Shown: piece by piece, positions 1 to 58,667 of the stretch
Numbering within the stretch: the stretch's first letter is position 1
Layout: every line of letters begins with the position of its first letter
Origin: a candidate division WOR-3 bacterium
GTDB taxonomy: Bacteria; Hydrothermota; UBA3072
DNA length: 64,000 nt
Assembly: GCA_039804165.1 (NCBI GenBank)
Contig: JBDRZZ010000001.1
Coordinates: 28,962 to 92,961 of the forward strand
Direction: 5' to 3'
Notes under the pieces: generated by a model
The model's input: the letters and a program-made list of their open reading frames with translations, nothing else
What the model was told of the DNA's origin: nothing
Database searches by the model: none
Program-made: the position numbers and the translations under genes

Positions 1-801
1 CCATCCATAATTTGGGATCTCGCTGAAGAAAATACACCATCTCTTGTGGAAGTTCCCGATGTTGAAACAATGAAGAAGAAGGCCGTCGAATACGCTATCA
101 AAGCCCTCGAACAATACAAATCTGAACTCCTTGCAGAGCGCAAACGGCAAGCTGAAATAAAACAGAAATACGGAGTTAAGTCACTTGAACACCTTGTTTT
201 AAAATTAGATGAGGAACTAATTGATCTCGAAGCTCGTAAAGCCAGAGGTGAAAATGTGGACCTTGTTATAAGAAACAAGCAGGAACGAAAATTAGAGTAC
301 GAACAAGCTTTAAAAGAGCTTCAAAGCCTCATAGAAAAGGAACAAAGCTTGACAATGACGATGCCACGATTCCTTGGAATGATTCAGGTAAAACCGCATC
401 CTCAGAAAAGTGCGGCAATGGTAAGCGATGCAGAAATTGAAGAAATCGGAATGCGCGTGGCAATGGAATACGAACAAACACAAGGTCGCATACCCGAAGA
501 TGTCTCATCACAAAACCTCGGTTTCGATATCCGCTCTACAGATAGCAGTAACAACACACGGTACATCGAAGTAAAAGCCCGTGCTCAAACCGGTCCTGTT
601 GCTCTCACACAAAACGAATGGTTTAAGGCACAACGGTTTGGTAACGATTACTATCTTTATGTTGTTTTTAACGCAGATTCAAAACCAGAGCTACGTATTA
701 TCGCAAACCCTGCCTCTATCTTAAAACCAGAAGAGAAAATAGAGATTGTTCGCTATTTTGTGGAGAGCAATGAAATTTTAAATAAAGGAATAAAAGTATG
801 A
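1..801 (+). CDS. C-terminal part (5' end outside window) of a putative SF2 helicase carrying a DUF3883-like C-terminal domain. Candidate first gene of a three-gene defence operon.
   Basis: Frame 1 is open from nt 1 with no upstream stop, so the GTG at 46 is not the real start. The C-terminal '[19 protein letters not shown]...ELRIIANP' block resembles DUF3883. The stop overlaps the next gene's ATG (ATGA at 798-801). Confidence 0.55.
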
Positions 802-3554
802 ACGACAAGCGCTTTATCGAAGTCTCGTTTCCAGTAAAAGAGGTAGGCGAGATTTCGGCAAAAGAAAAAAACATCCGACACGGACATATTAGCACGTTGC
901 ATATTTGGTGGGCGCGCCGACCTTTAGCTGCAAGTCGCGCGACTGCTTATGCTGCCCTTACTCCAATACCTGAAGATCCGATTGAATGGCAAAAAAAGAG
1001 AGATTTTATTATTAACCTATCCAAGTGGGAAAATTCAAACAACGAACAACTTATCAAACAGGCACAAGAGGAAATTTTAAAAGGAAACGGAGGTAAGCCC
1101 CCAAAGGTTATAGATCCTTTCTCGGGTGGTGGTTCTTATCCTCTCGAAGCGCTTAGACTGGGTTGTGAAGCTTATGCTAATGATTACAATCCTGTGGCTG
1201 TACTTATTGAAAAAGCTACCTTAGAATTTCCACAAAAATTCAGCAAACCTTTTGATGGCATGCCTAATTTGCTCAAACTGCATGCTTCTAATCAATCGAA
1301 AGGCAATTTGTTTACGGATGAGAATAGAACAATCCAAAATCCTTTGCTCTTTGCTGTTGAGTATTGGGGCAATTGGGTTTTAGAAGAAGCAAAAAAAGAA
1401 TTAGCTGAATTTTATACTTCCAATAAGAGTGAAATTCCAGTTGGCTACATTTGGGCAAGAACTGTTCCTTGCCAGAACCCTTCTTGTAGTGTGGAAATCC
1501 CTCTGATGCGTCAATATTGGCTTGCTAAGAAGGATAATAAAAAGGTTGCCTTGCATCCTGTTACAAAAGGAGCTGGTAAGCCAATTGAGTTTGAAATTGT
1601 GGCGCAAGGTATTTCCAACTACAAACCTTGGCCCAAAGATTTTGATCCCGAAGAGGGTACAGTAGCTCGTGCCAAAGTGCGGTGTCCAGCCTGTGGCTCA
1701 ATGATTGATGACAAAACCACACGTAAACTATTCCAAACCGGAAAAGCTGGGGAAAGAATGATTGCTGTGGTTTATACAAAACCCAAAACCGAAGGCAAAT
1801 ACTACCGCTTAGCCACAGAAGAAGATATAAAAACCTTCGAAAAAGCTAAAAAAGCACTTAACAAAAAAATCGAAGAACTCCGCGAAAAATGGATTTTGGA
1901 ACCTGTGCCAGATGAGGAATTGCCACCAAGAGGAACTTTAGGTTTTAGGATCCAAGGTTATGGAATGAACACTTGGGGTGATCTTTTCAATCCTCGACAG
2001 AAGCTCTCTCTTTTAGTTTTTGCCGATGCTGTGCGCAGAGCGTATGAGAAGATGAGGGAATTGGGCTATCCCGAAGATTTTGCCAAGGCTGTGACAGTAT
2101 ATTTGGGGATGGGATTAAGTAGACAAGCAGATTATAACTCAACTTTATGCGTTTGGGCAGTGGCAGGAGAATTTATAGCACATACTTTTGGTAGACAAGC
2201 TCTACCTATGATTTGGGACTACTTTGAATTGTATCCCGATAGTAATGCTACTGGTGATTGGAATTCTGGGTTAAATTGGATTCTTTCAGTTCTTCACCAC
2301 CTCTCCCAACTCCCCAACTCCCAATCTCCAATCCCCACTGTCACCCATTCCTCAGCCACACAGCTACCGTATCCCGACAACTACTTTGATGCAGTTCTTA
2401 CTGATCCGCCATATTACGACAATGTCCCCTACTCATACCTTTCTGATTTTTTTTATGTTTGGCTTAAGCGAACAGTGGGGCATCTTTTTCCAGAGCTTTT
2501 TGCTACTCCTCTTACTCCCAAAAGTGGAGAAATTGTGGCTTACACACAAAAAGAGGGAGGGCTTGAGGCTGGAATGAAGTTCTTTGAAGAACAGTTAGCG
2601 TTATCCTTCAAAGAGATGTATCGTATTTTAAAACCTGGTGGCATTGCTGTGATTGTGTATGCTCATAAGTCAACTGCTGGCTGGGAAACTGTCATTAATG
2701 CACTCCTTGATAGTGGCTTGGTTGTCAATGCTTCTTGGCCAGTGAATACCGAAATGCAATCACGGCTCAATGCTAAAGAAACAGCATCTTTAGCTTCTTC
2801 TATTTACATTGTTGCCCGCAAAATGGAACGAAAAGATATTGGATTTTACCCAGAAGTTAAAAAAGAGCTTGAATCCTATATGAATGAGAAGCTCGAAAGA
2901 CTCTGGCAAGAAGGAATTGGTGGAGCAGACTTTTTTATTTCTGCTATTGGTGCTGGTATTGAGGTCTTTGGCAAATATAAACAAATTATGGACTACAGTG
3001 GCAATATCATTCGCGCAGATATGATGCTCGAAGATATTCGGAAAATTGCAACTGATTATGCAGTGCATAAGATCCTGCATAATGGATTTGCTGGAGAAAT
3101 CAACGAACTTACCCGCTACTACGTGCTCTACCGGTGGGAATATGGCGAAGCAAAAGTTCAATTCGACGAAGCACGCAAGCTGGCAGCAAGCTGTGGCATC
3201 GATTTAGCGAATGAATGGAACAAACATGGGTTTATTAGAAAAGAAAAAGAATTTATTCGCCTACTTGGTCCGGAAGAAAGAACCATAAAAGACTTGGAAA
3301 ATTCCAATGAGCTCATCGATGTGTTGCATCATATGCTCTTGCTATGGGAAAAGAGCAAGCGAGATGACATACTTGAGCGCTTGCAGACAACCGGCTTTGG
3401 CAAGAGCGAAGCATTTTACCGAGTAGCTCAGGCAATTGCAGAAACTTTGCCGAACGAGAGTAAAGAGAAGAAATTACTAGAAGGATTTTTAGCAGGGAGA
3501 GAAAGAATTAGAAGTGAGATAAAACAAAAGAGGCAAAAGGAGTTATTCAAATGA
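798..3554 (+). CDS. DUF1156-family N6-adenine (or N4-cytosine) DNA methyltransferase with Zn-ribbon.
   Basis: The N-terminus '[43 protein letters not shown]' is the DUF1156 signature. SAM-binding motif I 'IDPFSGGGS' lies at about 1113-1133. Cys clusters 'CQNPSCS' and 'CPACGS' form a Zn-ribbon at about 1684-1701. Catalytic motif IV 'DPPY' lies at about 2403-2414. The gene is 918 aa and overlaps both neighbours by 4 nt. Confidence 0.8.
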
Positions 3555-6115
3555 AACCATTTCATACAATAGCAATCCCTCACAAAGACATCCTTGAGGG
3601 TCGTTTCACAATGGATGTTTTTGCAGCGGACCTTTGGGAAGCGTATCACAATCGCGGTCCGGCTGAGTATCGGGATGCGAAAACATTTTTTGAGAAGACG
3701 TACGAAACCCAAGGGTTACAAAATCTGCTTGATGTTATCTACAGGCGAGTAACCGGCAAGGGTGGTGATTCGACCATTCAGATTCAGACACCATTTGGTG
3801 GAGGTAAGACGCATTCGCTTATTGCCATCATGCACAAGGCGCAGGAGTGGAACGCGAAGAGAGTTGTCATTGTGGGTACAAATATTAGCGCAAAGGATAC
3901 GCTCTGGAGTATTCTTGAGCAACAACTTACGGGGAAGAATGAAAAACTCGTTGGATTAACATCGCCGGGTAAAGACAAGATAAAAGCAGTGCTTCAGGCG
4001 CATCAGCCTCTCATCATCCTTATGGATGAAGTGCTTGAGTATGTAACGAAAGCCGCTGGAGTAAAAGTAGAAAGCAGTACACTTGCCGCACAAACTATGG
4101 CGTTTATGCAGGAGCTGACGGAGACGGTCTCGATTTTGGAGAAGGCGTGCCTTGTGGTAACGCTTCCATCAAGTATAATCGAACACTACGATCAGGCAGC
4201 AGAACAATTATTCGCTCAGCTTCAAAAAGTGATGGGACGAGTGGAAAAAATCTATACGCCTGTGCAAGAATCCGAGATTGCCAAGGTCATTCGTCGAAGG
4301 CTTTTTACATCTGTTGATGAGAAAAAGGCATTACAAGTAATTAAGCACTTTCTTGACTATGCTCAGAAGGAAGGGATTCTCCCGCCTGGGATGGAAGTCA
4401 GCGAGTATCGGGATAGATTTTTAGATTCTTATCCTTTTATGCCAGAAGTGATTGATGTTTTATATCACAGGTGGGGAAGTTTCCCTGGTTTTCAACGGAC
4501 TCGAGGTGTTTTAAGGCTTCTTTCATTAGTTATCTCAGAACTCAAAACAAAAAATCTTCCTTATATCAGTCTTGCAGATTTTAATCTTGCCCAACAGGAG
4601 ATACGTCAAGAACTCTTAAAACACATTGGAACAGAATTCAACAGTGTCATTGCACAAGATATTACTGATGCAGATGCGGGAAGTAAGAAAGTGGATATGA
4701 ATCTTGGCGAAGCGTATAAGGGTTTACACCTTGCAACTCGAGCTTCAACGGCAATTTTTATGTATTCATTCTCCGGAGGAACAGAACGGGGGGCAACGCT
4801 AACAGAAATTAAACGGACAGCAACAACGCTCAATAACCCTTCTAGTGTTGTTGCAGAAGCTCTTGAGCAGTTGAAGAGCAAGCTGTTTTATTTCCAACTT
4901 CAAGCAGATAAGTACTTCTTCTCGAACCAGCCAAATATTAATCGTATTATCCTCACTAAAATGGAGAATGTTCACGATGCAGAATTGCTTGAATTAGAGA
5001 AAGACTTACTGAAGCAGAATATCCGTGGAGATCGAATGAAAGTGTTTCTGTGGGAAGAACAATCGTCGTCAATTCCTGATACTGAAGATCTGAAGCTTAT
5101 TATTTTACCAGAAGAGAAGAAAGAGGTGATTGAATCTATTTTGAAAACAAAAGGTGAAAGCCCTCGGGTAAATTGTAACACTTTATTTTTCCTTTTCCCT
5201 ACTGATATTGAGCGAGCAAGCTTTAGAGTTCAATTGAAACGCTACAAAGCTTACCAAGCGCTTGAGAAAGATACAACCGTTTCTCTGGGAGAGGAACAAC
5301 GGAAAGAAATTCGTGCTGAACTCAAGAGATACGAAAGCGACATCAAAGAAGCACTTCGGAAACTGTACCGACAAGTTGCCATTCCTACGAGGGAAGGCTA
5401 CAAGAAAGACGACCTTGGCATCCCAACGTATGGTGAACAGAAACCACTTGATGTTGTGGTGTATGAGAAACTTCTTTCAAATGGTGAAGTTGTTGAGCAG
5501 TTAGTTCCACTCGTCATTAAGGAACGATACCTTAAAAACAATAGGTTTGTATTAACAAAACAGATTGCGCAAGCGGGATACCAGACTCCAGGTGAGCTTC
5601 GAGTTAGAGACAGAACTATCCTTGAAAGAGCAATTTTAGAGGGGATTGAGAAAGGTGTATTTGGTTTGGGGGAACTTGAAAACGACAAGCCGATTTGTAG
5701 ATATTTTCAAGAAACCCCGAGGGTTGGTTTTAGTGATAATGAGATTCTTATAAGTGAGGAGCTCTGTAAAGAGGAAAAAAGAGGTAAGGAAAGGATAACT
5801 TCGGAACATAAGATGGAGTATCCACCGAGCACTTCCGTTGGAACAGGAGCAGCTGTTAATGAATCTTTGGAGGTAGCTGTAGAAGAGAGCGGTTTTAAGG
5901 ATAATGTCCACTTAAGTTTTGATATTCCTAAAGGGAAAGTTTCTGAGGTATTACGCATAATAAACTTTTTACAGCAAAAATTTGAGATTATTAATTTAGA
6001 AATTAAAGCAAGGGATGGAAAAATTTCTGAACAGGATTATGAAAATAAAGTGAAAGAGGCGTTGAGACAATTGGGAATTGAGTTTGGAGAGGAAAATAGA
6101 CCAAACAAATTGTAG
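3551..6115 (+). CDS. DUF499-family P-loop ATPase (COG1483-like).
   Basis: N-terminal '[26 protein letters not shown]' is the DUF499 signature. Walker A '[13 protein letters not shown]' lies at about 3794-3814 and Walker B '[11 protein letters not shown]' at about 4009-4035. It is start/stop-coupled to the methyltransferase (ATGA at 3551-3554). Confidence 0.75.
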
Positions 6116-6255
6116 AAAGAAAATTTGGGGAATTTTATCTGAAGTTATGTAGAAAAGGCTTTATCTTTAAGGTTTTTTTAGATCTCTCTTGAAGTTCTAA
6201 TCTTTATTTAAATATTTTTACTTTAAACCTTAACTGCCGGAGAAAAAGGGGATAC

Positions 6256-6282
6256 TTGACAATTTGGTAAAAATGATAATAT
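6256..6282 (+). promoter_or_regulatory. Putative sigma70 promoter upstream of hppA. TTGACA at about 6256-6261 and TG-extended TAATAT at about 6277-6282, spacer about 15.
   Basis: Hexamers read directly in the AT-rich 286 nt intergenic region. The start codon at 6402 is preceded by AAGGAGGA. Confidence 0.35.
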
Positions 6283-6401
6283 TGATGGGAAAATTTAGAA
6301 AGCAGGTCATATAGAAAAAGCATAGGAAAAATAAAAATTTTGCTTAACTTAAGTTTCAATTGTAAAGGTAAAAATAAAGATAAAATAAAAAAGGAGGATA
6401 G

Positions 6402-13618: not shown

Positions 13619-15669
13619 TTTTCTTTTTTTTGATCTTAGTTTTTTCTGGTGAAGAGGAAGAATTATATAAATTAAGAAAAGAGTATATTTTACCTCTTTC
13701 TGTGGAGCCTTCTTTTGTAGAAAAGGGAGAAGCTTATTTAAATCTTGCCGTAATTGATATAAAACTTAAAGATTTTGATAGAGCTTCTCGGGAGTTGAAA
13801 AAAGCTTCTTTTTATGGTAGAAAAAAGGAAGCAATTTATCTTGAGGGTGTTATTAATTACCTAAAGGGTGATATTGAGAAAGCAGTTTCAAATTTTAAGA
13901 AGATAGATGAGTGGGAATACATATTTTTTTTAGAAAATTTGTATACTCTTTCTCTTGGAAATCCAATTGAAAAAGAAATTATAAATAAGTTTCCTGATTC
14001 TCTTGGTTTTTATTTTGTCTTTTATGAAGAGGATTCTTTAAAAATTTTGGATTGGCTTGGAAAGGCTTCTATACCTTTATGGCAGAATTTTCTTGGTAGA
14101 GGATATCTTTGTTATGAGGGAGGAAAATATAGAAGAGCTTTAAACTATTTTAGAGAGTCTTATAAAATAAAAGAAACACAACTTACAGGAGTATATATTA
14201 TAGCTACTTTATTTCAACTTTCTGAATTTGATAGTCTTATTTCTTTTCAGGAAAGGGCTTCTATAAATACCCCTCTTACTAATTATCTAAAAGGAGAGGC
14301 TTATTATAAGAAAGGAAAAATGGAGAAAGCCTTAGAAATTTTTCTTTCTGACAGCTTTCCTTTTTATGAAACTCATAAGCTTTTTGGAGCAGGTTGGTGT
14401 ATGTATCAACTTGGAGAGTATTCTCAAAGTGTTTCATTATTTAAAAAATTCCTTGATATCTATAAAGAGGGAGAACTTAAACAATATGCTTTGTATCGGA
14501 TAGGAAGAGCTCTATTAAAACAAGGGAAAGTTGAAAGTATTGACTACTTTAAGGAAATAGTAGAAAAATATCCTTCTTCTCCTCTTAGAGATGATGCTTA
14601 TTTATTACTCGGCAAAATTAATTTTCTTCTTAATAAAGAAGACGAAGCAATTAGATGGTTTGAGTTACTTTTAAAAGAATATCCTTCTTCTTCGTGGTTA
14701 CCAATCGCTTATAAATATCTTGGAGAAATTTTTTTAAATAAGGAAGAATTTGGCAAAGCTTATAGATGTTATAAAGAGATATTGTCGCTAAAAGGAATTT
14801 CTCTGGATTTGTTGGATGAGGCACAATATAAGATTTTGGAAATAAGATGGAGAAGAGGAGAATTCCCTACAAAAATACATATGTATAAGGTTTTTGTGGA
14901 AAAATATCCTAAAAGTCCTAGAACACCTTCTCTTCTTCTTAAAATAGCAGAGTATTATGAGGTAGCGAAGAGATACGATCTGGCAATTCAATTTAATAAA
15001 AAAGTGCTTTTTGATTATCCGGGATCCCTTGAGGCTAAAGAAGCTTTGTTTAATGCTGTGAGAGTTTATGAAGAGATGGGTGAATTCCCTAAGGCTATAG
15101 AGCTTCTTGAGAACAATATAGAAGGAGAACCTGATTTGAAAGAAAAGATTTACTTGAAGCTCGGGGAGAATTTTGCAAAAATGAGGGATTTTAAAAAAGC
15201 GATTGAATATTATAAGAAGGTTTCTACAGATAGCCTTAAACCATATTCTTTATATCAAATCGCCTTGCTTTATCAAGAATTAGGTTTTTTAGAAGAGGCT
15301 CGAATTCCTCTTAGGAATATTATAGAGAAATTTCCGGATTCGGATTATATAGGGAAAACTTATCTTCTTCTTGCAAAAACATATTTCCAGGAAGGTGCTT
15401 TGAAAACTGCAATTGAGATTCTAAATAAAGGATTGAAAAATTTGGGAGATAAAGAAACGGGAGAGCTTCTTTCCTTTAAAGCCACTATATATTGCGAATT
15501 AAACGATGAAGAAGCTCTTGAATTGTATTTAGAAAGTGCTAATAAGATTACAGATAGGAAAAGTAAGATTGAGGTTTTAGAAAAAGGGAGAGAATGTGCA
15601 ATAAGACTTAATAAGACTGATAAAGTGGAACTGTTTGAGAATTTGATAAAAGATTTAAAATCTCAGTGA
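13615..15669 (+). CDS. TPR-repeat protein.
   Basis: 684 aa of repeated about 34-aa helical units (A/Y/L-rich). N-terminal hydrophobic segment. Confidence 0.65.
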   Translation: MIFFFLILVFSGEEEELYKLRKEYILPLSVEPSFVEKGEAYLNLAVIDIKLKDFDRASRELKKASFYGRKKEAIYLEGVINYLKGDIEKAVSNFKKIDEWEYIFFLENLYTLSLGNPIEKEIINKFPDSLGFYFVFYEEDSLKILDWLGKASIPLWQNFLGRGYLCYEGGKYRRALNYFRESYKIKETQLTGVYIIATLFQLSEFDSLISFQERASINTPLTNYLKGEAYYKKGKMEKALEIFLSDSFPFYETHKLFGAGWCMYQLGEYSQSVSLFKKFLDIYKEGELKQYALYRIGRALLKQGKVESIDYFKEIVEKYPSSPLRDDAYLLLGKINFLLNKEDEAIRWFELLLKEYPSSSWLPIAYKYLGEIFLNKEEFGKAYRCYKEILSLKGISLDLLDEAQYKILEIRWRRGEFPTKIHMYKVFVEKYPKSPRTPSLLLKIAEYYEVAKRYDLAIQFNKKVLFDYPGSLEAKEALFNAVRVYEEMGEFPKAIELLENNIEGEPDLKEKIYLKLGENFAKMRDFKKAIEYYKKVSTDSLKPYSLYQIALLYQELGFLEEARIPLRNIIEKFPDSDYIGKTYLLLAKTYFQEGALKTAIEILNKGLKNLGDKETGELLSFKATIYCELNDEEALELYLESANKITDRKSKIEVLEKGRECAIRLNKTDKVELFENLIKDLKSQ

Positions 15670-17912
15670 ATTAAAATAAATTTCTGAGAATGCAGAGTTG
15701 TGTTATTTGTTTTTGTTATTAAAAAGTAAACGCCAGAGGGAAGGTTATTTAAGTTTATTTTTGTGGTCTTTGACTCTCCAGAACCATCAAATTCTACTTT
15801 ATGAATAACATTTCTTCCGGTAATATCGTAAATTAAAAAGTCTATCTCCCTCCAGGGCTGAATTCTATATTCTATTTCTAAAATTCCATTTGTGATGGAA
15901 GAGGTAATTTTGGAGGAGAAAATTGGAGTGGAGCCCCAAACTGAATCTAAGTATGGTTTATAATTAAAGTGAGTAATTGTTAAATAAAATTTTTCTGTAA
16001 ATGAAATGCTATCTTTTTGAGAGAATGTAATAATAGCTTTACCTGTTGAATCTGTATAGGTTGATTTTATTAGGTTATCTCTTTTTCTATATAAAGAGAC
16101 CAAAGCTCCTCTAACTGGATTTAATGAGTTTTCTTCATAAACTTTTATATCATGATCTGGAAGACCAAGGTAGATTGTATCTGGAAAGGTTACTTTGAAT
16201 TTCTTTGGAGTATCCGTTCTAAGTTGAAGAGAAGGATCTCCAAAAATGTGCCATGTTTCTGCAATTTCTCCTCCAATGGAATCACCACATTGTTCTATCA
16301 TATAGCATAGACCGTTAAAATAAACTCCTCCTGCTGTATTTGCTTTATAATGAGCAAGGAGATTAATAGCTCCTTCTTGTCCAATGCAAGGTGGAATCCA
16401 TGATTGCTCTATTGTGGGGGCTAAAATAACAATAAAGCCTGTAGGATTTTCTATAGTTCCACTGGTTAGGGCTGCTTCAGAGAAGCAGGTTTTCCCATTG
16501 AAATCTCCTGTATAACAGGCTACAGAAATCACATGTGGAAGTTTCCAATAATTTCTAAGAGAATTTATATTACTGATAGAAAACCCTCCTCCACTTGCCC
16601 AGCCATTAACTGAACCGTGTCCAATGTAATTTATTATTGATACACCAGAATTTATAACACTTGCAATCTTGGAGCTTGTCCCCCAAGGATCGTAACTTGA
16701 GTCAATAGATGTGTAAGTAAAATAAGGAGGGATGTTATAAAGTAAGGTATCTTTTAACCAATTACATCTTTTTTTATCCAATATGGAGTCAACAGGATCG
16801 TAATCATTACTCGCAATTCCTAATCCTTTATGATACCAATCTGCTCCTTCCTCAGGGTTTCTTTCATATTTAATACTCCGCATTACCTGTTTCCTTATAT
16901 TTAGGTTTGATCCTCCATTTGAAGAGAATCTTCCTACAAAAAACTCAGGATAGTAGTCATTTCCTTTAACATAAGCATAAGTTGGATCTGCATCTTTATT
17001 TTCGGAAAGACCAATCGTTCCTTTTGGAGGAGGAAGTTCGTCTCCATCTCCAACAAGAAGGCAAAAAGTGATCCCTAAGCTATCATATTGTTTTTTAATG
17101 AAATTTTTTATTGAAGAGACATCATTCCCAATCTCTTCTAAGAGATAAACTTCTGTGGGTATACCTTTTCTTCTTTTCCAAGTAACAAAAGAATCAAGCT
17201 CAGATAGATATTTTTGTGGGGTAAGGATAATCATTCTGCCAGGAGCTTCTTCAATAATTTTGTATCTCAATTTTTTCTCACTGAAATTTATAAAGAAATT
17301 TTTATATATATTTTCCATCGTTTTTAAGAATATTTTCTCTTCTGAAAATCTTGAAACTTCTATCTCACCCTCAAAATATAGCTCTATAGTTATTTTTTTA
17401 AGAGCGAGAATTTCTTCTTTTTCTCTATTGTACCGGATTGGATTAATGTAAACCGTTATTCCTTTGAAATCTCTCATAAAGAAAGGTTTTGAAAGATATA
17501 CCCAAGAAGATGGGAAAGTATCTTTTGAGGAATAAAAATCACTGAAATAATATGGGATTGAGGAAGGGGAAATACTTCGATATATATTTCCTTTAGAAGG
17601 AATAATTGGAGGTGCTTTAATATTAATGAAGTCCTTATCAATAATCCTAAAATTTATCTCTTTTTTATCAGTAGGAACTATAAAACTTTTAGCAATTCTT
17701 GGAGTTGAAGGATATCCTTTTTGTAAATAATTGAAAGCCCCAGGCATTATAATTTTACTATAAGATTTTCCATTTATTACAATTGTATCTAAAAAAAATC
17801 CTGAAAAAGAAACTTCAACTTTTATCCTTTCAGAATTATCTTCAATTATAGAATGCTGAAATTCTCCGTTTAGAGTTAACCATTTTCCTATTAGAAGAAT
17901 TATTAAAACCAC
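15663..17912 (-). CDS. Peptidase C25 (gingipain-like) with a T9SS C-terminal sorting domain.
   Basis: Catalytic His context 'NYIGHGSVNGWASGG' and Cys context 'VISVACYTGDF'. N-terminal signal peptide. The C-terminal about 80 aa beta-sandwich ('GVYFLITKTNNTTLHSQKFILIH') is typical of T9SS CTDs. Confidence 0.7.
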   Translation of the reverse strand: MVLIILLIGKWLTLNGEFQHSIIEDNSERIKVEVSFSGFFLDTIVINGKSYSKIIMPGAFNYLQKGYPSTPRIAKSFIVPTDKKEINFRIIDKDFINIKAPPIIPSKGNIYRSISPSSIPYYFSDFYSSKDTFPSSWVYLSKPFFMRDFKGITVYINPIRYNREKEEILALKKITIELYFEGEIEVSRFSEEKIFLKTMENIYKNFFINFSEKKLRYKIIEEAPGRMIILTPQKYLSELDSFVTWKRRKGIPTEVYLLEEIGNDVSSIKNFIKKQYDSLGITFCLLVGDGDELPPPKGTIGLSENKDADPTYAYVKGNDYYPEFFVGRFSSNGGSNLNIRKQVMRSIKYERNPEEGADWYHKGLGIASNDYDPVDSILDKKRCNWLKDTLLYNIPPYFTYTSIDSSYDPWGTSSKIASVINSGVSIINYIGHGSVNGWASGGGFSISNINSLRNYWKLPHVISVACYTGDFNGKTCFSEAALTSGTIENPTGFIVILAPTIEQSWIPPCIGQEGAINLLAHYKANTAGGVYFNGLCYMIEQCGDSIGGEIAETWHIFGDPSLQLRTDTPKKFKVTFPDTIYLGLPDHDIKVYEENSLNPVRGALVSLYRKRDNLIKSTYTDSTGKAIITFSQKDSISFTEKFYLTITHFNYKPYLDSVWGSTPIFSSKITSSITNGILEIEYRIQPWREIDFLIYDITGRNVIHKVEFDGSGESKTTKINLNNLPSGVYFLITKTNNTTLHSQKFILIH

Positions 17913-17913
17913 T

Positions 17914-19473
17914 TTAAAGCTCCTCGGCCCACATATGGAAAAATGTTTTTAGTTTTTTTCTGTTTGGTCCCATTCTTAATTTGCGAAGAGCGTTTTCTTC
18001 TATTTGTCTTACTCTTTCTCTTGAAATATTAAACATTGAAGCGATTCTTTCAAGGGTTTTGCTTTCCCCATCTAAAAGACCATATCTTAGTTCTAAGACT
18101 TTTCTTTCACGAGGAGAGAGGATTTTTAGCTCTTCAAGAAGATTTTCGCTTAATAACTTTAATAGTGCTTTCTTCTCTGGAGAAGGGACACTTTCTTCTG
18201 AAATTGTGTCTCCAAATAGGAGTTTTCCATCTTCCATAATGGGGTCATCTAAAGATTTCGTTGCCCCTTTTAAGTTTTCTGCGAATTTTATCTTTTCTCC
18301 TGAGACTCCAATATCTTCCGATATTTCTTCTATGGAAGGGAGAATGCCACTCTTTTTTAAAAATTTCTTTTTTGAATTCTTTATTTTGTTAAGAAGAGTC
18401 AATGCGTGGATAGGTAGGGAAAAAGATTCAAGTTGCTCCGCAATAGTTTTTATTATAGATTGTCGGATCCACCAAATACAGTAGGTTGAGAATTTATAAC
18501 CTTTCTTATAATCAAATCTATCTGCCGCTTTTACAAGACCTGTATTTGCAGCCTGGATAAGATCCATAAAACTAAGACTCAATCTTTTATATTTTTTCGC
18601 TATTGAAAAAGCTAACCGAAGATTTCCTTCAATCAATCTTTTCTTTATATAAGAGAAGAAATTTTCCCACTTCTCAATATTTTTTCTTGTATTGGAAACT
18701 TCTTCCCAACTCGCAAGGATTTCAAATTGAAATTTCTCCAATTCATTTTTTAACTCTTCTTTTTTATGGATTATTTTTTCTCTCTCTTCCTGAGATAGTT
18801 CTATTTTTAGGTCTTCTTCTATTTTTTTGTTTTGTAGGATTAGATTTTCAAACTTATTGTATATTTCTTTTTCTAAATTTATAAATTTTTTTAAATAAAC
18901 TGGTTGGATTCTGATTTTTAGGATTTGTTTTATTATTGCATCCTCATATCTTTTATATTTAAATTTGTAAATATTTTTTTGAGTTCTTAGATAAGCTTCT
19001 TTATATTTTTCCAGTTTTATTTTATATCTTCCAATATTCTTCATTAATCTCAATAAATTTTTTCTTTCTTTATCTAATTTGTGTTTTTTAATTCTATTTT
19101 TATCTAAATATAAAAACTGTTTAATAAAAGATGGCTTTCTTTTAATTTTTTTCTCAAAAGACAAAAATTCATTTATTACAGGGATAACCCTACTCAAATG
19201 TTGAGTGAGCATTACACAAGCTTTTTCTAATTTTTCTTTCAGTTCAAGTTCTTCTTCCTCTGTAAGAAGGGAAAGTTTTTCTATCTCTTTTAGATAAAGC
19301 TTAAAAGGTTCACTATCACTTGTTAAGGAAGCCTTTTTTTCTTTCTTTGAGGTAAAGGTTTCTTCGTTTGGTTCATCTTCAAATGTTTCTATTCTTTCTA
19401 TTAATTCATTCAAAGGAATCTCTTCTTCCATTAGATTTAAAAATTTTGATAAGATTATTTCTTTCTCTCTCAA
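17914..19473 (-). CDS. rpoD: RNA polymerase sigma-70 factor.
   Basis: Region 2 'LIQAANTGLVKAADRFDYKKGYKFSTYCIWWIRQSI' and region 4 HTH are present. It lies downstream of dnaG. Confidence 0.85.
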   Translation of the reverse strand: MREKEIILSKFLNLMEEEIPLNELIERIETFEDEPNEETFTSKKEKKASLTSDSEPFKLYLKEIEKLSLLTEEEELELKEKLEKACVMLTQHLSRVIPVINEFLSFEKKIKRKPSFIKQFLYLDKNRIKKHKLDKERKNLLRLMKNIGRYKIKLEKYKEAYLRTQKNIYKFKYKRYEDAIIKQILKIRIQPVYLKKFINLEKEIYNKFENLILQNKKIEEDLKIELSQEEREKIIHKKEELKNELEKFQFEILASWEEVSNTRKNIEKWENFFSYIKKRLIEGNLRLAFSIAKKYKRLSLSFMDLIQAANTGLVKAADRFDYKKGYKFSTYCIWWIRQSIIKTIAEQLESFSLPIHALTLLNKIKNSKKKFLKKSGILPSIEEISEDIGVSGEKIKFAENLKGATKSLDDPIMEDGKLLFGDTISEESVPSPEKKALLKLLSENLLEELKILSPRERKVLELRYGLLDGESKTLERIASMFNISRERVRQIEENALRKLRMGPNRKKLKTFFHMWAEEL

Positions 19474-22289: not shown

Positions 22290-22570
22290 AAAAATTATTT
22301 TATACAATTAAAGAAGTTTCTAATCTTTTAGGCGAGAGCGAGTCTACTTTAAGATTTTGGGAAGGAGAGTTTAAGGAACTTAAACCAAGGAGAGGAAGTG
22401 GAGGGAAAAGACTCTATTCCGAAAAAGATATTGAATTGCTGAAGAAGATTAAATATCTATTGAGAGAAAAAAAACTTTCCTTAGATGGTGCTAAAAAACA
22501 TCTTTCAGGTAAAGTGGGAGAACTGGATCTTATTAGGAAATTAGAAGAATTAAAGAGGATTTTACAATGA
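22277..22570 (+). CDS. MerR-family HTH transcriptional regulator (small).
   Basis: 'YTIKEVSNLLGESESTLRFWE' HTH followed by a coiled coil. Overlaps gpsA and purH. Confidence 0.5.
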   Translation: MEKMKKLFYTIKEVSNLLGESESTLRFWEGEFKELKPRRGSGGKRLYSEKDIELLKKIKYLLREKKLSLDGAKKHLSGKVGELDLIRKLEELKRILQ

Positions 22571-24129
22571 ATGAGTTAAAAATTAAAAATGCTCTTATTT
22601 CTGTTTATGATAAAAAGGGAATTGTTGAACTCTCTCGGGAATTAGAAAAAGCAGGTGTTGAGATTATTTCTACCTCTGGAACTTATAAAGTTCTCTCTGA
22701 GGCTGGAATTAGAGTGAAAAAGGTGGAAGAGATTGCCAGGACTCCTGAATTACTTGGAGGTAGAGTAAAAACACTACAACCGGAAATATTTGCTTCTATC
22801 CTTGTGAATAGAGAAAATAATAAGCACATTGAAGAATTAGAAACTCTTGGTCTTGAGCCCATAGATCTTGTTGTGGTTAATCTTTATCCTTTTGAAAAAG
22901 GATTAGAAAATGGGCTTTCTGAAGAAGAAATGATAGAATTGATTGATATTGGAGGGGCTTCCTTACTTCGAGCTGGAGCTAAAAATTATAAATTTTGTCT
23001 TGTTCTTACTTCTCCAGAGGATTATGAAATTTTTCTTCAAGAGTTTAAAAAGAGAGAAGGTTTTATATCCATTGAGTATAGAAAAAGACAGGCTGAGAAA
23101 GCTTTTAGGCTTTTAGCCTCTTATAACAGAGTTATAGCTGATTATTATGCAAAATTGCTTGGAGAAGGTTCCGAATTTCCTAATAGATTACTCCTTGAGG
23201 GTGAGAAACTAATAGATTTACGTTATGGAGAAAATCCTCACCAAAAGAGTTCTCTATACCGCATTATTCATAGTGATATTAGTCTTGTTGATGCGAAACA
23301 GCTTGGCGGTAAAGAGATGTCTTACAATAATTGGATGGATACTGATGCGGCTGTTGGAGTTGTATCTGAATTTACAGAACCCTGTGTTGCTATTATAAAG
23401 CATTCTTCACCCTGTGGTGTTGGAATTGGAGAGTCAATTCTTGAAGCGTTTAAAAAGGCTAAAATATCAGATCCGGTTTCTGCTTTTGGAGGGATTATTG
23501 CTTCAAATAGAGAAGTTGACTTTGAGCTTGCTTTGGCGATAATTGAGTCCTTCTTTGAGGTTTTAATAGCTCCTGGTTATTCGGAAGAGGCTCTCTCTAA
23601 GCTTAAGGAAAAGAAAAATTTGCGAATTTTAGAGGCTAGTAAAAAGCTATTTTCAAGATTTTCTTATAAAAAGGTTTTTTCTTTAGTTGGTTCTCTCCTT
23701 GTTCAAGAAAATGATTCATCTATAGAGCCTTATACCGAATGGAAGGTAGTTAGTAAGAGAGAACCGACAAAAGAGGAATTACAGGAACTTGATTTTGCGT
23801 GGAAGGTTGTAAAATGGGTTAAGTCAAATGCAATTGTTCTTGCTAAAGATCTTAAAACAATTGGAATTGGAGGAGGGCACACTTCAAGAGTTGATGCGGT
23901 TGAATTTGCAATTCTTAAAGCGAAAAAGCATGGACATAATCCAAAAGGTTCTGTTATGGCTTCCGATGCATTTTTCCCTTTTAGAGATTCAATTGATCTT
24001 GCAAAAGAGGCGGGAATTACAGCTATTGTTGAACCTGGTGGCTCTGTGCGAGATGAAGAGGTTATTAAAGCTGCGAATGAGCATAACATTGCTCTTCTAT
24101 TTACAGGGAGAAGACACTTTAGACATTGA
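22567..24129 (+). CDS. purH: Bifunctional AICAR transformylase / IMP cyclohydrolase.
   Basis: N-terminal MGS-like 'ALISVYDKKGIVELSREL' and 'ISTSGT'. C-terminal AICARFT domain. 520 aa. Confidence 0.9.
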   Translation: MNELKIKNALISVYDKKGIVELSRELEKAGVEIISTSGTYKVLSEAGIRVKKVEEIARTPELLGGRVKTLQPEIFASILVNRENNKHIEELETLGLEPIDLVVVNLYPFEKGLENGLSEEEMIELIDIGGASLLRAGAKNYKFCLVLTSPEDYEIFLQEFKKREGFISIEYRKRQAEKAFRLLASYNRVIADYYAKLLGEGSEFPNRLLLEGEKLIDLRYGENPHQKSSLYRIIHSDISLVDAKQLGGKEMSYNNWMDTDAAVGVVSEFTEPCVAIIKHSSPCGVGIGESILEAFKKAKISDPVSAFGGIIASNREVDFELALAIIESFFEVLIAPGYSEEALSKLKEKKNLRILEASKKLFSRFSYKKVFSLVGSLLVQENDSSIEPYTEWKVVSKREPTKEELQELDFAWKVVKWVKSNAIVLAKDLKTIGIGGGHTSRVDAVEFAILKAKKHGHNPKGSVMASDAFFPFRDSIDLAKEAGITAIVEPGGSVRDEEVIKAANEHNIALLFTGRRHFRH

Positions 24130-24142
24130 GAAAGGAGGTTAT

Positions 24143-25402
24143 ATGGAGATTAAATTAATATTCTGGATTATTTTCTTTGTGATGGTTTTCCCACTTTGCT
24201 CTTTTTCTGAAGATGATATTAAGGCAAAGATTACTCCAGAAGCTATAGATGCCAGGATAAGGGAAATTAGAATGGGAGAGATAATAGTAAAGACAACCCC
24301 CCATACAGAGGTTAAAGTTCAGCAATTGCGGCATGAATTTTTATTTGGAACTGCAATTACAGATAATCTTGCAGAAAAATCAGAAAATGCAATGTCCGAA
24401 AAAGATAGGAAGATGTTTCTAAAGATTCTTAAAGAGAACTTTAATTATGCAGTCCATGAAAATGCTTTGAAATGGTATGACTGTGAAAGAGAGAAAGGGG
24501 TTGTAGATTATTATCTTGCAGATAGAATATGGGAGCTGTGCAATGAACTTGGGATTCCTATGCGAGGTCACTGTATTTTCTGGGAGAAAGACAAATATAT
24601 TATGCCATGGCTTAAGGAATTGAATAATGATGAACTTCGGAGAGCTGTGATTAGAAGAGCAATTAGTGTGGTAGAACATTTTAAAGGCAGAATAGAAGAA
24701 TTTGATTTGAATAATGAGATGATACATGGAGATTTCTTTCGTAGGCGTTTAGGTTATGGAATTATTAATGAAATGGCTTATGCGGCAAAATCTGCAAATC
24801 CAAATGTGATTCTGTATGTTAATGATTATGGAATTCTTGTGGAGGGAGGTTATAATACGGATGCTTATATAACGCAGATAGAAAATCTTCTTGCAAATGG
24901 AGTTCCTATAGGTGGGATTGGTTGTCAGGGTCATTTTATTACATCTAATCCAAATAATTCAAAAGGAAAGGCAATTACAACTCCAGAGCATGTTCAGAAA
25001 ACCCTTGATAGACTTGCTAAATTTAATCTACCAATAAAAATAACAGAATGTCTCTTTATAGGTAACACAGAAGAAGATAAGGCTTCTGAGCTAAGAAAGT
25101 TTTTCCCAATTTTCTTTGCTCATCCAAGTGTTGAGGCGATTATTATGTGGGGATTTTGGGAAGTAGGTCATTGGGTTCCTGAAACTGCTATGTGGAAGAA
25201 AGATTGGTCTCCAACGCCATTAGCTTTGGCTTATAGAGACCTTGTTTTTAATAAATGGTGGACTAATGTTGTTGGAAAATCGGATGATAAAGGGATTTTT
25301 AAAACCCGTGCTTTTTTTGGAGATTATTTAATTACTTCAGGAGGAGAAGCAAAGAAGGTAACTCTAAGCAAAAAAGATAAATTTATAGAAGTGAATTTTT
25401 AA
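24143..25402 (+). CDS. Glycoside hydrolase family 10 (endo-1,4-beta-xylanase-like), secreted.
   Basis: Start reassigned to the ATG at 24143 (RBS GAAAGGAGG), because the track ORF 23828.. overlaps purH. GH10 blocks 'RGHCIFWE', 'NNEMIHG', 'VNDYGIL', 'GIGCQGHF' and 'ITEC' (ITELD-like) are present, plus a signal peptide. Confidence 0.7.
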   Translation: MEIKLIFWIIFFVMVFPLCSFSEDDIKAKITPEAIDARIREIRMGEIIVKTTPHTEVKVQQLRHEFLFGTAITDNLAEKSENAMSEKDRKMFLKILKENFNYAVHENALKWYDCEREKGVVDYYLADRIWELCNELGIPMRGHCIFWEKDKYIMPWLKELNNDELRRAVIRRAISVVEHFKGRIEEFDLNNEMIHGDFFRRRLGYGIINEMAYAAKSANPNVILYVNDYGILVEGGYNTDAYITQIENLLANGVPIGGIGCQGHFITSNPNNSKGKAITTPEHVQKTLDRLAKFNLPIKITECLFIGNTEEDKASELRKFFPIFFAHPSVEAIIMWGFWEVGHWVPETAMWKKDWSPTPLALAYRDLVFNKWWTNVVGKSDDKGIFKTRAFFGDYLITSGGEAKKVTLSKKDKFIEVNF

Positions 25403-57984: not shown

Positions 57985-58001
57985 GATTAGAGGGAGAAAA
58001 A

Positions 58002-58667
58002 ATGAGAAAAAATGGACTTTTTATAATTTCTTTTATTCTTATCTTATTTGCAATGAATTGTAAGGAGACAAAAATAAAACAAAATTTTAAGGAATATAGA
58101 TATAAAGTGATTCCGAACGAAGAGATTGAAATTTATGGAGTGAATGTTAATAAGGCAATAGATGAAAAATTTAGCTTGCTTGAGAAGGAGTTTAACAGTA
58201 AAGCAGAAATTGATGATGAAGTAGCTGTAGTGATACTCCGACGGCTAAAAGATTTCGTAAAAAAGACTAAAGAAACAATACCTAAAGACTGTGTCGATCT
58301 TTTATATGGCCCTATAGATGTTCAAAAAATCTATAATCAGGAAATATATAAGGAATATCAGAATGTGTCTCCAAATACTATCATAGTTAGTGGTAAGCTC
58401 CTATTTTCGGAAGATTCAACTGTTAAAGAGTCAATTATTACTGAGCTGCAGAAAATTTTACCTTCTAATGATACCTGTAAAAAGGTTATTAAAGACCTTC
58501 GGCAGTTTATTCATGGAGACTTTGAAAAGAACACTCAGTTCAAAATTGATTTCGATATACCGAAGTTTCCTTATGCTGAATTTGCTGTATGGTTTCATAA
58601 AGGGGAGGAAGAAAACATATACTATCAGTATATTTTTTCTTTAAGAGAAGACGCTTACCCTTATTGA
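58002..58667 (+). CDS. Candidate cognate immunity protein (secreted protein / lipoprotein, 221 aa).
   Basis: Start reassigned to the ATG at 58002 (GGGAG RBS), the residue M15 of the track ORF. N-terminal signal 'MRKNGLFIISFILILFAMNC'. It lies immediately downstream of the RHS toxin, overlapping its 3' end. Confidence 0.45.
   Translation: MRKNGLFIISFILILFAMNCKETKIKQNFKEYRYKVIPNEEIEIYGVNVNKAIDEKFSLLEKEFNSKAEIDDEVAVVILRRLKDFVKKTKETIPKDCVDLLYGPIDVQKIYNQEIYKEYQNVSPNTIIVSGKLLFSEDSTVKESIITELQKILPSNDTCKKVIKDLRQFIHGDFEKNTQFKIDFDIPKFPYAEFAVWFHKGEEENIYYQYIFSLREDAYPY

What the first reader, a model, noticed from the sequence alone, without database searches (positions are those of the whole stretch)
1..6115. 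Three-gene putative defence operon: DUF3883-type helicase, DUF1156 Zn-ribbon N6-methyltransferase, DUF499 ATPase
Three overlapping, same-strand genes are coupled by ATGA start/stop overlaps at 798 and 3551. They encode a helicase C-terminus (DUF3883-like), a DUF1156 methyltransferase (motif I 'DPFSGGG', Zn-ribbon 'CPACGS', motif IV 'DPPY') and a DUF499 P-loop ATPase (Walker A 'GGGKTH', Walker B 'ILMDE'). From memory, this COG1743/COG1483/helicase trio was predicted by comparative genomics of defence islands (Makarova et al. 2011) as an RM-like module. I am not aware of a mechanistic or phenotypic characterisation. The helicase is cut by the window edge, so the locus extends upstream. This is the strongest candidate in the window for an under-described immune system.
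Basis: partly seen in the sequence, partly recalled or inferred. Interest (0 to 1): 0.8.

Follow-up and report, generated by a model that had tools for sequence, protein, structure and literature searches.

The report
Hma (BREX-related) anti-phage operon
The three genes are a compact, intact-looking copy of the already named Hma anti-phage system (helicase-nuclease, methyltransferase, ATPase; also called Type-1 BREX-related), so the reading is right but the system type is not new.

Summary
Window 1-6115 carries three same-strand genes joined by ATGA stop/start overlaps at 798 and 3551, and every quoted motif is present. HMM searches return NOV_C/DUF3883, DUF1156 and DUF499. PADLOC assigns them to HmaA (C-terminal part only), HmaB (8e-136) and HmaC (2e-116). 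This trio was named Hma in 2021. HmaA from Halomonas was shown in 2024 to protect E. coli against T4 through a PD-(D/E)XK nickase. In 2026 the trio was re-described as the "Type-1 BREX-related (DUF499-centred)" system. The window holds only the last 266 residues of the first protein: a conserved linker plus the nuclease domain, with no helicase motif. In about 55 related loci the homologous ORF is 1110-1150 aa, and the three I scanned carry SNF2 + Helicase_C + NOV_C. The order A-B-C on one strand is conserved in 67 and 38 gene pairs across bacterial and archaeal phyla. The source is a candidate division WOR-3 MAG. The operon has higher GC than its housekeeping neighbours, which suggests horizontal acquisition. 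How HmaB and HmaC work is untested anywhere; an RM-like mechanism is inferred. Verdict: a new member of a known kind, of low interest as a discovery.

The parts
1..801 (+). 3' end of hmaA: the last 266 codons of a Snf2-family helicase-nuclease. The rest of the gene, about 855 codons, lies upstream of the window.
   Evidence: The frame is open from nt 1. PADLOC HmaA 4.9e-15 matches profile positions 914-1138 of 1176. Homologues at 50-71% identity sit in ORFs of 1110-1150 aa, and the three scanned have ResIII/SNF2 + Helicase_C + NOV_C and two hit HmaA at 1e-204 to 1e-211. The first residues, PSIIWDLAE, fall inside a block conserved in full-length homologues.
436..702 (+). NOV_C (DUF3883) PD-(D/E)XK nuclease domain of HmaA, aa 146-234 of the fragment. 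Putative catalytic residues are D176, E190, K192 and E206.
   Evidence: Pfam NOV_C 4.4e-26. D176, E190, K192 and E206 are invariant in 28 sequences. By motif order and spacing I equate them with D1084/E1104/K1106/E1121, which are required for nickase activity and defence in Halomonas HmaA (PMC11232893); the two proteins were not aligned here.
798..3554 (+). hmaB: DUF1156-type SAM-dependent methyltransferase, 918 aa.
828..977 (+). DUF1156 N-terminal region of HmaB, aa 11-60.
   Evidence: Pfam PF06634. It is the most conserved block in the alignment: 0.96 for aa 21-40.
1113..1133 (+). Methyltransferase motif I, DPFSGGG (SAM binding).
   Evidence: D106, F108, G110-G112 are invariant.
1470..1694 (+). 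Beta-rich insert carrying a four-Cys site (C225, C230 ... C296, C299), the putative Zn ribbon or target-recognition module. It lies between motif I and motif IV.
   Evidence: All four Cys are invariant in 57 sequences. The model shows strands over aa 213-338 at pLDDT about 90.
2403..2414 (+). Methyltransferase motif IV, DPPY (catalytic).
   Evidence: D536-Y539 are invariant.
3551..6115 (+). hmaC: DUF499 ORC/Cdc6-like AAA+ ATPase, 854 aa. It has no N-terminal HEPN domain.
   Evidence: PADLOC HmaC 2e-116. Pfam DUF499 1e-31. Model pLDDT 78. Foldseek best hits are ORC/Cdc6 and BrxC chains at E about 3e-5. Walker A is already at aa 83, which leaves no room for a HEPN domain. The sequence is identical to NCBI MEO0292626.1.
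3797..3814 (+). Walker A, GGGKTH.
   Evidence: invariant.
4016..4030 (+). Walker B, ILMDE.
   Evidence: D159 and E160 are invariant.
5891..6088 (+). Small C-terminal domain of HmaC (aa 781-846), set off by a variable, disordered linker (aa 748-780). It is a candidate for the RRM/ferredoxin-like sensor domain described for DUF499 proteins.
   Evidence: pLDDT is 77-87 with two helices; the linker is below 50. Linker conservation is 0.2-0.33. The RRM fold itself was not demonstrated here.
6116..6401 (.). AT-rich intergenic spacer that ends the operon. It holds a promoter-like site for the downstream pyrophosphatase gene.
   Evidence: GC falls to 29-33%. TTGACA-16-AATATT lies at 6256-6283. The next gene is an H+/Na+ pyrophosphatase, followed by purE and purC.

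Best explanation
Window 1-6115 is the 3' two-thirds of a compact hmaABC operon. This is the Hma anti-phage system, also called the Type-1 BREX-related (DUF499-centred) system. It was horizontally acquired by a candidate division WOR-3 bacterium and sits next to housekeeping genes.

Proposed working model; only the HmaA step has experimental support, and that comes from a homologue:
1. HmaB, a SAM-dependent DPPY methyltransferase with a Zn-ribbon-bearing insert, marks host DNA.
2. HmaC, an ORC/Cdc6- and BrxC-like AAA+ ATPase with winged-helix domains and a small C-terminal domain, recognises DNA or an infection cue and assembles or licenses the complex.
3. HmaA, a RapA/Snf2-type translocase with a C-terminal PD-(D/E)XK nickase, translocates on unmarked invading DNA and nicks or cleaves it.

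The ATGA overlaps point to translational coupling, and so to stoichiometric co-production of the three proteins.
For: Identity:
- PADLOC gives HmaB 8e-136, HmaC 2e-116, and HmaA 4.9e-15 on the C-terminal fragment. Pfam gives NOV_C, DUF1156 and DUF499.
- Full-length homologues of the fragment hit HmaA at 1e-204 to 1e-211 and carry SNF2 + Helicase_C + NOV_C.

Synteny:
- A->B->C on one strand is seen in 67 A-B and 38 B-C pairs from many bacterial and archaeal phyla.
- About 40% of A-B pairs and half of B-C pairs are compact, like this locus.

All catalytic motifs are intact and invariant.

Folds:
- HmaC resembles ORC/Cdc6 and BrxC.
- The HmaA helicase core is closest to RapA.
- HmaB has a SAM methyltransferase core and hits the PglXI profile of type-3 BREX.

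Horizontal origin: GC is 41% and GC3 35-37% in the operon, against 33.8% and 24.4% for 26 other genes of the window.

Literature:
- HmaA alone protects E. coli from T4 and needs Snf2 motif VI and the D/E/K/E nickase residues (PMC11232893).
- An RM-like model has been proposed on comparative grounds (PMC12839542, PMC7641849).
Against: - The helicase core of this particular locus is outside the window and could not be retrieved. Its integrity is therefore unknown; some relatives have split or frameshifted hmaA.
- No methylation or restriction by HmaB or HmaC has been shown in any member.
- In Halomonas, T4 grown on an HmaB-expressing host was neither more nor less sensitive to HmaA, and HmaA without HmaB was not toxic (PMC11232893). 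Both results sit badly with a simple RM model. T4's glucosyl-hmC DNA and the heterologous set-up limit that test.
- The nearest solved folds to HmaB are generic SAM methyltransferases and m2G tRNA methyltransferases, not DNA methyltransferases.
- Pfam DNA-methylase hits fall below the gathering cut-offs.
Confidence: 0.6

Rival explanations
1. HmaA is an autonomous effector that gives an Abi- or dormancy-like defence. HmaB and HmaC do not provide methylation-based self/non-self discrimination. Instead they regulate or sense (for example by licensing HmaA on an infection cue), or they form a second, independent defence module.
For: HmaA alone protected E. coli against T4 without toxicity. Pre-growing T4 on HmaB-expressing cells made no difference. 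About 15-20% of hmaA loci lack hmaB or hmaC (PMC11232893). In this subclade the HmaB insert region is not hypervariable: conservation is 0.5-0.86 across phyla. That is unlike the diversifying target-recognition domains of classical RM systems.
Against: A-B-C linkage on one strand was seen in every related locus where both genes are on the contig. Translational coupling here argues for a single machine. The methyltransferase catalytic motifs are strictly conserved, so methyl transfer is under selection. The T4 test is weak because T4 DNA is hypermodified.
Confidence: 0.25
2. The system acts like BREX. Methylation marks self, and HmaC with HmaA blocks phage DNA replication without degrading it. 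The nuclease plays a minor or back-up role.
For: HmaC resembles BrxC. HmaB hits the PglXI profile and HmaA homologues hit BrxHI/BrxHII. The 2026 analysis places the family next to type-3 BREX (PMC12839542). Bell et al. 2020 suggested that DUF499 might interfere with replication (PMC7641849).
Against: None of the ORFs scanned between 6.4 and 28 kb downstream of the operon, nor the others sampled further along, is a PglZ or BrxA/B/L homologue. The PD-(D/E)XK residues are invariant and are required for defence in the tested homologue (PMC11232893).
Confidence: 0.08
3. The locus is a decaying or non-functional remnant, for example with a disrupted hmaA upstream. Alternatively the genes serve a non-defence role such as RNA modification or chromatin remodelling.
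For: The upstream 2.6 kb is unseen. Several relatives have split or frameshifted hmaA. HmaB's nearest solved folds include tRNA m2G methyltransferases.
Against: All three visible reading frames are intact with every catalytic motif preserved. The coupled starts are retained. The family's patchy, cross-domain distribution at 50-75% identity and the frequent embedding of toxin-antitoxin and defence genes (bioRxiv 10.1101/2024.01.29.577857) fit a mobile defence module, not housekeeping.
Confidence: 0.05

Closest known systems
Hma system (HmaA/HmaB/HmaC) of PADLOC (Payne et al. 2021, PMC8565338); tested member from Halomonas meridiana SCSIO 43005 (Liu et al. 2024, PMC11232893)
   Same: It has the same three protein families in the same order on one strand. 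HmaB and HmaC match the PADLOC profiles over nearly their full length. The HmaA nuclease has the same D...ExK...E catalytic set.
   Different: This copy is compact with no embedded genes, whereas the Halomonas locus has Septu and an ATPase pair inserted; about 63-66% of Hma loci carry inserts. The host is a candidate division WOR-3 MAG. The helicase core is not visible in the window. Nothing has been tested for this copy.
Type-1 BREX-related (DUF499-centred) system (NAR 2026, PMC12839542)
   Same: It has a DUF499 AAA+ ATPase, a DUF1156-headed methyltransferase with an insert between motifs I and IV, and a Snf2 helicase ending in an active PD-(D/E)XK nuclease. No DUF3780, HKD or PglZ gene was seen.
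   Different: It belongs to the minority (about 44% of taxa) whose DUF499 lacks the N-terminal HEPN RNase. The C-terminal RRM fold was not confirmed here.
Type-3 BREX (BrxC, PglXI, BrxHII, PglZ ...)
   Same: The three core proteins are homologous: a PglXI profile hit for HmaB, BrxHI/BrxHII hits for HmaA homologues, and BrxC structural hits for HmaC.
   Different: There are no PglZ, BrxA or BrxB genes. The helicase carries a nuclease, so DNA cleavage is expected rather than non-degradative exclusion.
Type-2 BR system / NCBIfam 'anti-phage-associated DUF1156, DUF499' equivalogs; PADLOC DUF1156_MTase, DUF499, PLD_Helicase
   Same: It has the same Pfam domains (DUF1156, DUF499).
   Different: Scores are far below the equivalog cut-offs: 190.6 against 1000 and 161 against 1200. 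There is no DUF3780 gene. The nuclease is PD-(D/E)XK at the C-terminus, not an N-terminal HKD/PLD.
ATP-dependent restriction-modification enzymes that couple a translocase to a nuclease (Type I, Type III, Type ISP); comparison from general knowledge
   Same: The logic is the same: a methyltransferase plus an SF2 translocase plus a PD-(D/E)XK nuclease.
   Different: There is a separate ORC/Cdc6-like ATPase and no HsdS-type specificity subunit. No recognition sequence, methylation or restriction has been demonstrated.

Membership tests
Hma system (PADLOC definition) | HmaB: DUF1156-type methyltransferase matching the HmaB profile | tested here: met
   PDLC00661 7.9e-136 and PDLC00660 1.8e-133 over aa 3-847. 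Pfam DUF1156 9e-21.
Hma system (PADLOC definition) | HmaC: DUF499 AAA+ ATPase matching the HmaC profile | tested here: met
   PDLC00662 2e-116. Pfam DUF499 1e-31. Walker A and B are intact.
Hma system (PADLOC definition) | HmaA: C-terminal NOV_C/DUF3883 nuclease part | tested here: met
   HmaA profile positions 914-1138 match at 4.9e-15 and NOV_C at 4.4e-26. The catalytic D176, E190, K192 and E206 are invariant.
Hma system (PADLOC definition) | HmaA: Snf2/SF2 helicase core in the same polypeptide | not testable with these tools
   The core lies upstream of the window. The source contig could not be fetched. It is inferred from about 55 homologous ORFs of 1110-1150 aa; the three scanned have SNF2 + Helicase_C.
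Hma system (PADLOC definition) | The three genes lie on one strand, in one locus, with at most three embedded genes between them | tested here: met
   The genes are contiguous with 4-nt overlaps.
Hma system (PADLOC definition) | Anti-phage activity | not testable with these tools
   Activity has been shown only for HmaA of Halomonas meridiana against T4 (PMC11232893).
Type-1 BR (DUF499-centred BREX-related) system | DUF499 ATPase with an ORC/Cdc6- and BrxC-like AAA+ core | tested here: met
   Foldseek hits 7tji_D, 1fnn_A (Cdc6/ORC) and 9zn5_A, 9zll_C (BrxC) at E 3e-5 to 8e-5.
Type-1 BR (DUF499-centred BREX-related) system | C-terminal RRM/ferredoxin-like domain on the DUF499 protein | tested here: inconclusive
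   A confident small domain spans aa 781-846 after a disordered linker. DSSP called two helices and no strands. No domain-level fold search was possible.
Type-1 BR (DUF499-centred BREX-related) system | Methyltransferase with an N-terminal DUF1156 domain and a large insert inside the methyltransferase core | tested here: met
   DUF1156 lies at aa 11-60, motif I at 106-112 and motif IV at 536-539, with a beta-rich Zn-Cys4 insert and helical domains between them.
Type-1 BR (DUF499-centred BREX-related) system | Helicase ends in an active PD-(D/E)XK nuclease (Type-2 has an N-terminal HKD; Type-3 has no nuclease but has PglZ and iSTAND) | tested here: met
   NOV_C has an intact D/ExK/E set. No DUF3780, PglZ or HKD gene lies between or downstream of the genes. 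The upstream side is unseen.
NCBIfam anti-phage-associated DUF1156 / DUF499 equivalogs (NF042963, NF042962) | Score at or above the curated equivalog cut-off | tested here: not met
   190.6 bits against a cut-off of 1000, and 161 bits against 1200. These are related proteins, not the same equivalog.
Tiamat (TmtA) | Full-length match to a TmtA profile | tested here: not met
   TmtA is the fragment's top PADLOC hit (1.5e-20), and most TmtA matches cover little beyond the NOV_C domain. Full-length homologues score 1e-204 to HmaA against 1e-19 to TmtA.
BREX | PglZ phosphatase and BrxA/BrxB/BrxC/PglX core | tested here: not met
   The genes downstream of the operon are a pyrophosphatase, purE, purC and glycosyltransferases. 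There were no BREX hits apart from the PglXI similarity of HmaB. The upstream side is unseen.
Restriction-modification system (functional class) | Sequence-specific methylation that protects self DNA from the cognate nuclease | not testable with these tools
   No methylome or restriction data exist. The DPPY motif is shared with m2G RNA methyltransferases, and the top solved folds include Trm11, TrmN and Trm14.

The most novel reading that the evidence does not exclude
HmaB may not be a DNA self-marking enzyme. Three observations leave this open. Its closest solved folds are generic SAM methyltransferases and m2G tRNA methyltransferases. HmaC is reported to end in an RRM-like domain. The one published test found no HmaB-dependent change in phage sensitivity. 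Together they allow an RNA-modifying or RNA-sensing arm, for example marking or reading a host or phage RNA to license the HmaA nickase. That would make Hma a mechanistically new kind of defence rather than an RM variant.
Probability: 0.1. Interest if true: 0.6.

Novelty: new member of a known kind. Interest (0 to 1): 0.2.

Why it matters
As a discovery it matters little. The system type is already in PADLOC, has a name and a re-classification, and has a partial experimental record. This copy adds only another host lineage (candidate division WOR-3).

Its residual value is practical. It is a minimal Hma operon with translationally coupled genes, no embedded cargo, no HEPN fusion and all catalytic motifs intact. 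That makes it, or a close relative with a complete hmaA, a clean construct for the open question in this family: what do the DUF1156 methyltransferase and the DUF499 ATPase do, and is self/non-self discrimination really methylation-based?

Tried and rejected
1. Recovering the missing 5' part of hmaA failed.
- An exact-protein look-up of HmaB found no record.
- The only readable contig carrying HmaC (Logan, L083) breaks inside hmaB.
- An exact 41-mer scan of the metagenome contigs found nothing.
- The 222,642-bp NCBI contig is known only through protein accessions.

2. TmtA (Tiamat) is the top PADLOC hit for the fragment. I rejected it because most of its matches cover little beyond the shared NOV_C domain.

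3. The NCBIfam 'anti-phage-associated' DUF1156/DUF499 equivalogs score far below their cut-offs, so they were rejected.

4. All 120 best protein hits to the fragment are shorter than 470 aa, which first suggested a stand-alone nuclease gene. The genome loci show that this comes from fragmentary contigs and a few frameshifted or split genes.

6. Further defence genes next to the operon were looked for and not found. The downstream genes are housekeeping. The MzaA hit of the rpoD-like gene comes from its sigma-70 domains.

7. No tRNA or Rfam element marks an integration site anywhere in the window.

Full report
**Observation.**
- A frame is open from nt 1 to a TGA at 799-801, giving 266 codons.
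- It is followed by ORFs 798..3554 (918 aa) and 3551..6115 (854 aa) on the same strand.
- Both junctions are ATGA overlaps, and the third gene has an AAGGAG ribosome-binding site.
- Every quoted motif is at its place: DPFSGGG (aa 106-112), CPACGS (296-301) and DPPY (536-539) in the second protein; GGGKTH (83-88) and ILMDE (156-160) in the third.
- These residues are invariant in alignments of 57 and 61 homologues. So is a second cysteine pair, C225/C230, which completes a four-Cys site with C296/C299.

**Family assignment.**
- Pfam gives NOV_C (the former DUF3883) at 4.4e-26, DUF1156 at 9e-21 and DUF499 at 1e-31.
- PADLOC gives HmaB at 7.9e-136 and HmaC at 2e-116, each over nearly the full length.
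- For the fragment, PADLOC gives HmaA at 4.9e-15, aligned to profile positions 914-1138 of 1176.
- The fragment's formally best hit, TmtA, mostly covers only the shared NOV_C domain.
- The NCBIfam 'anti-phage-associated' DUF1156/DUF499 equivalogs are hit far below their cut-offs. They describe a sister group.

**The unseen helicase.** No helicase motif lies in the window. The fragment is a conserved linker region plus a PD-(D/E)XK nuclease domain.

I scanned one genome per species for relatives of the fragment and obtained 80 loci, at 50-71% identity, from many bacterial and archaeal phyla.
- In about 55 of them the ORF holding the match is 1110-1150 aa.
- Three such ORFs have ResIII/SNF2 + Helicase_C + NOV_C.
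- Two of them hit the HmaA profile at 1e-204 and 1e-211, ahead of DrmD and BrxHI/BrxHII.
- The nearest solved helicase is RapA.
- The window's first residues (PSIIWDLAE) fall inside a block conserved in full-length proteins, so the gene almost certainly continues about 2.6 kb upstream.

I could not fetch that DNA. A few relatives have split or frameshifted hmaA, so the integrity of this copy is unproven.

**Synteny.** HmaB homologues follow the helicase on the same strand in 67 loci, and HmaC homologues follow HmaB in 38.
- 28 A-B junctions and 20 B-C junctions are compact (no more than about 110 bp), as in this locus.
- The others hold 0.3-3.9 kb inserts. These encode IS200-like transposases, HepT/MNT and PIN toxin-antitoxin pairs, ABC-ATPase pairs and similar genes.
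- This is the published 'embedding' behaviour of Hma (bioRxiv 10.1101/2024.01.29.577857).

**Source and context.** HmaB and HmaC are identical to MEO0292625.1 and MEO0292626.1 of a candidate division WOR-3 MAG, on a 222,642-bp contig.
- Downstream lie a pyrophosphatase, purE, purC, glycosyltransferases, a T9SS-sorted C25 peptidase, rpoD, dnaG, gpsA and purH.
- No other defence gene, tRNA or Rfam element was found.
- The hma genes have GC 41% and GC3 35-37%. The 26 other genes of the window have 33.8 +/- 2.7% and 24.4 +/- 3.5%.
- This suggests horizontal acquisition. So does the 55-77% identity to proteins from unrelated phyla, archaea included.

**Structure.**
- The HmaC model (pLDDT 78) best matches ORC/Cdc6 AAA+ proteins and the recently solved BrxC of Acinetobacter BREX.
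- Walker A sits at aa 83, so there is no N-terminal HEPN domain.
- A variable, disordered linker (aa 748-780) precedes a confident small C-terminal domain (aa 781-846). This could be the RRM-like module described for DUF499 proteins, but I could not confirm the fold.
- The HmaB model (pLDDT 81, pTM 0.75) contains a class-I SAM methyltransferase core. That core is interrupted, between motif I and motif IV, by a beta-rich Zn-Cys4 module and helical domains.
- Neither HmaB nor HmaC has a sequence-detectable solved relative.

**What is known.**
- The operon was noted as a predicted restriction system, COG1743 -> DUF499 -> SWI2/SNF2 helicase-nuclease (PMC7641849).
- It was named Hma in 2021, with 1,638 instances in 26 phyla, often near Septu (PMC8565338).
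- In 2024, HmaA of Halomonas meridiana alone protected E. coli from T4. Defence needed Snf2 motif VI and the NOV_C residues D1084/E1104/K1106/E1121, and the isolated domain nicked supercoiled plasmid with Mn2+.
- In the same study, T4 grown on HmaB-expressing cells behaved no differently (PMC11232893).
- In 2026 the family was re-described as Type-1 BREX-related systems, homologous in all three components to type-3 BREX. An RM-like model was proposed (PMC12839542).
- The present locus meets the Type-1 features I could test. It belongs to the HEPN-less, insert-free subset.

**Mechanism.**
- Shown, in a homologue: the helicase-nickase is an anti-phage effector. The four residues I equate, by motif order and spacing, with its catalytic set are invariant here (D176, E190, K192, E206).
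- Inferred: HmaB methylates host DNA, HmaC senses or loads on DNA and licenses the complex, and HmaA translocates on and nicks unmarked DNA.
- I put identity as an Hma/Type-1 BR locus at about 0.95 and the RM-like mechanism at about 0.5. The overall confidence given is 0.6.
- The main rival (0.25) is that HmaA acts autonomously and HmaB/HmaC regulate or sense rather than mark self. The Halomonas data support this. So does the absence of a hypervariable specificity region in HmaB across this subclade.

**Verdict.** The system type is already named, catalogued and partly characterised. This is a new member of a known kind, and its interest is low (0.2). Its one practical merit is that it is a minimal, uncluttered operon suited to testing what the DUF1156 and DUF499 proteins do.

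Noticed in passing
window 52582-57984 (+): An 1800-aa RHS-repeat protein (Pfam RHS_repeat 4.6e-32), probably a polymorphic toxin. Small ORFs follow it (57960-58667 and onwards) and could be immunity genes.
   Followed up: partly
window 1-6115 compared with 6402-64000: The hma genes have GC 41% and GC3 35-37%. The 26 other genes average GC 33.8% and GC3 24.4%. The composition step falls at the 6116-6401 spacer, which suggests a horizontally acquired island whose upstream edge lies outside the window.
   Followed up: yes
window 15663-17912 (-) and 33740-35263 (-): Two proteins carry type IX secretion C-terminal sorting domains (Por_Secre_tail). One is a C25 (gingipain-like) peptidase. This fits an FCB-group host (WOR-3).
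   Followed up: partly
window 17914-19473 (-): The RpoD-like sigma factor hits the PADLOC MzaA profile at 7e-45 over the C-terminal stretch that holds its sigma-70 regions 2-4. This is a false friend, not a defence gene.
   Followed up: yes
window 22567-24129 and 23828-25402 (+): The mechanically listed purH and GH10 xylanase ORFs overlap by about 300 nt. The GH10 Pfam match starts at aa 171, so the true start is probably further downstream.
   Followed up: no
L019 and L020 (contig DAINAU010000004.1, 52.9 kb): The same contig carries two hmaA-hmaB loci about 26 kb apart, with identical match statistics. This is a duplicated Hma locus or a repeat in the assembly.
   Followed up: no
P0271 (Roseiflexus castenholzii, 1279 aa) and P0273 (1148 aa): Some HmaB homologues carry an extra DUF559 (Vsr-like endonuclease) domain. 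That would be a methyltransferase-nuclease fusion within the family.
   Followed up: no
L001/L082 (Candidatus Poribacteria chromosome OZ242310.1), L006, L028, L033: In these relatives hmaA is split into a helicase ORF and a separate NOV_C ORF. In L001 the pieces are 607 aa and 403 aa, 1 nt apart. The cause may be frameshifts, assembly errors or genuine split genes. It explains why the 120 best protein hits to the fragment were all shorter than 470 aa.
   Followed up: partly
alignment A3 (HmaB) and alignment A2 (HmaC): Across phyla this subclade is unusually uniform, at about 60-77% identity. In HmaB only two short segments vary (aa 150-180 and 480-520). In HmaC only the linker at 741-780 varies. 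There is no obviously diversifying specificity domain.
   Followed up: partly
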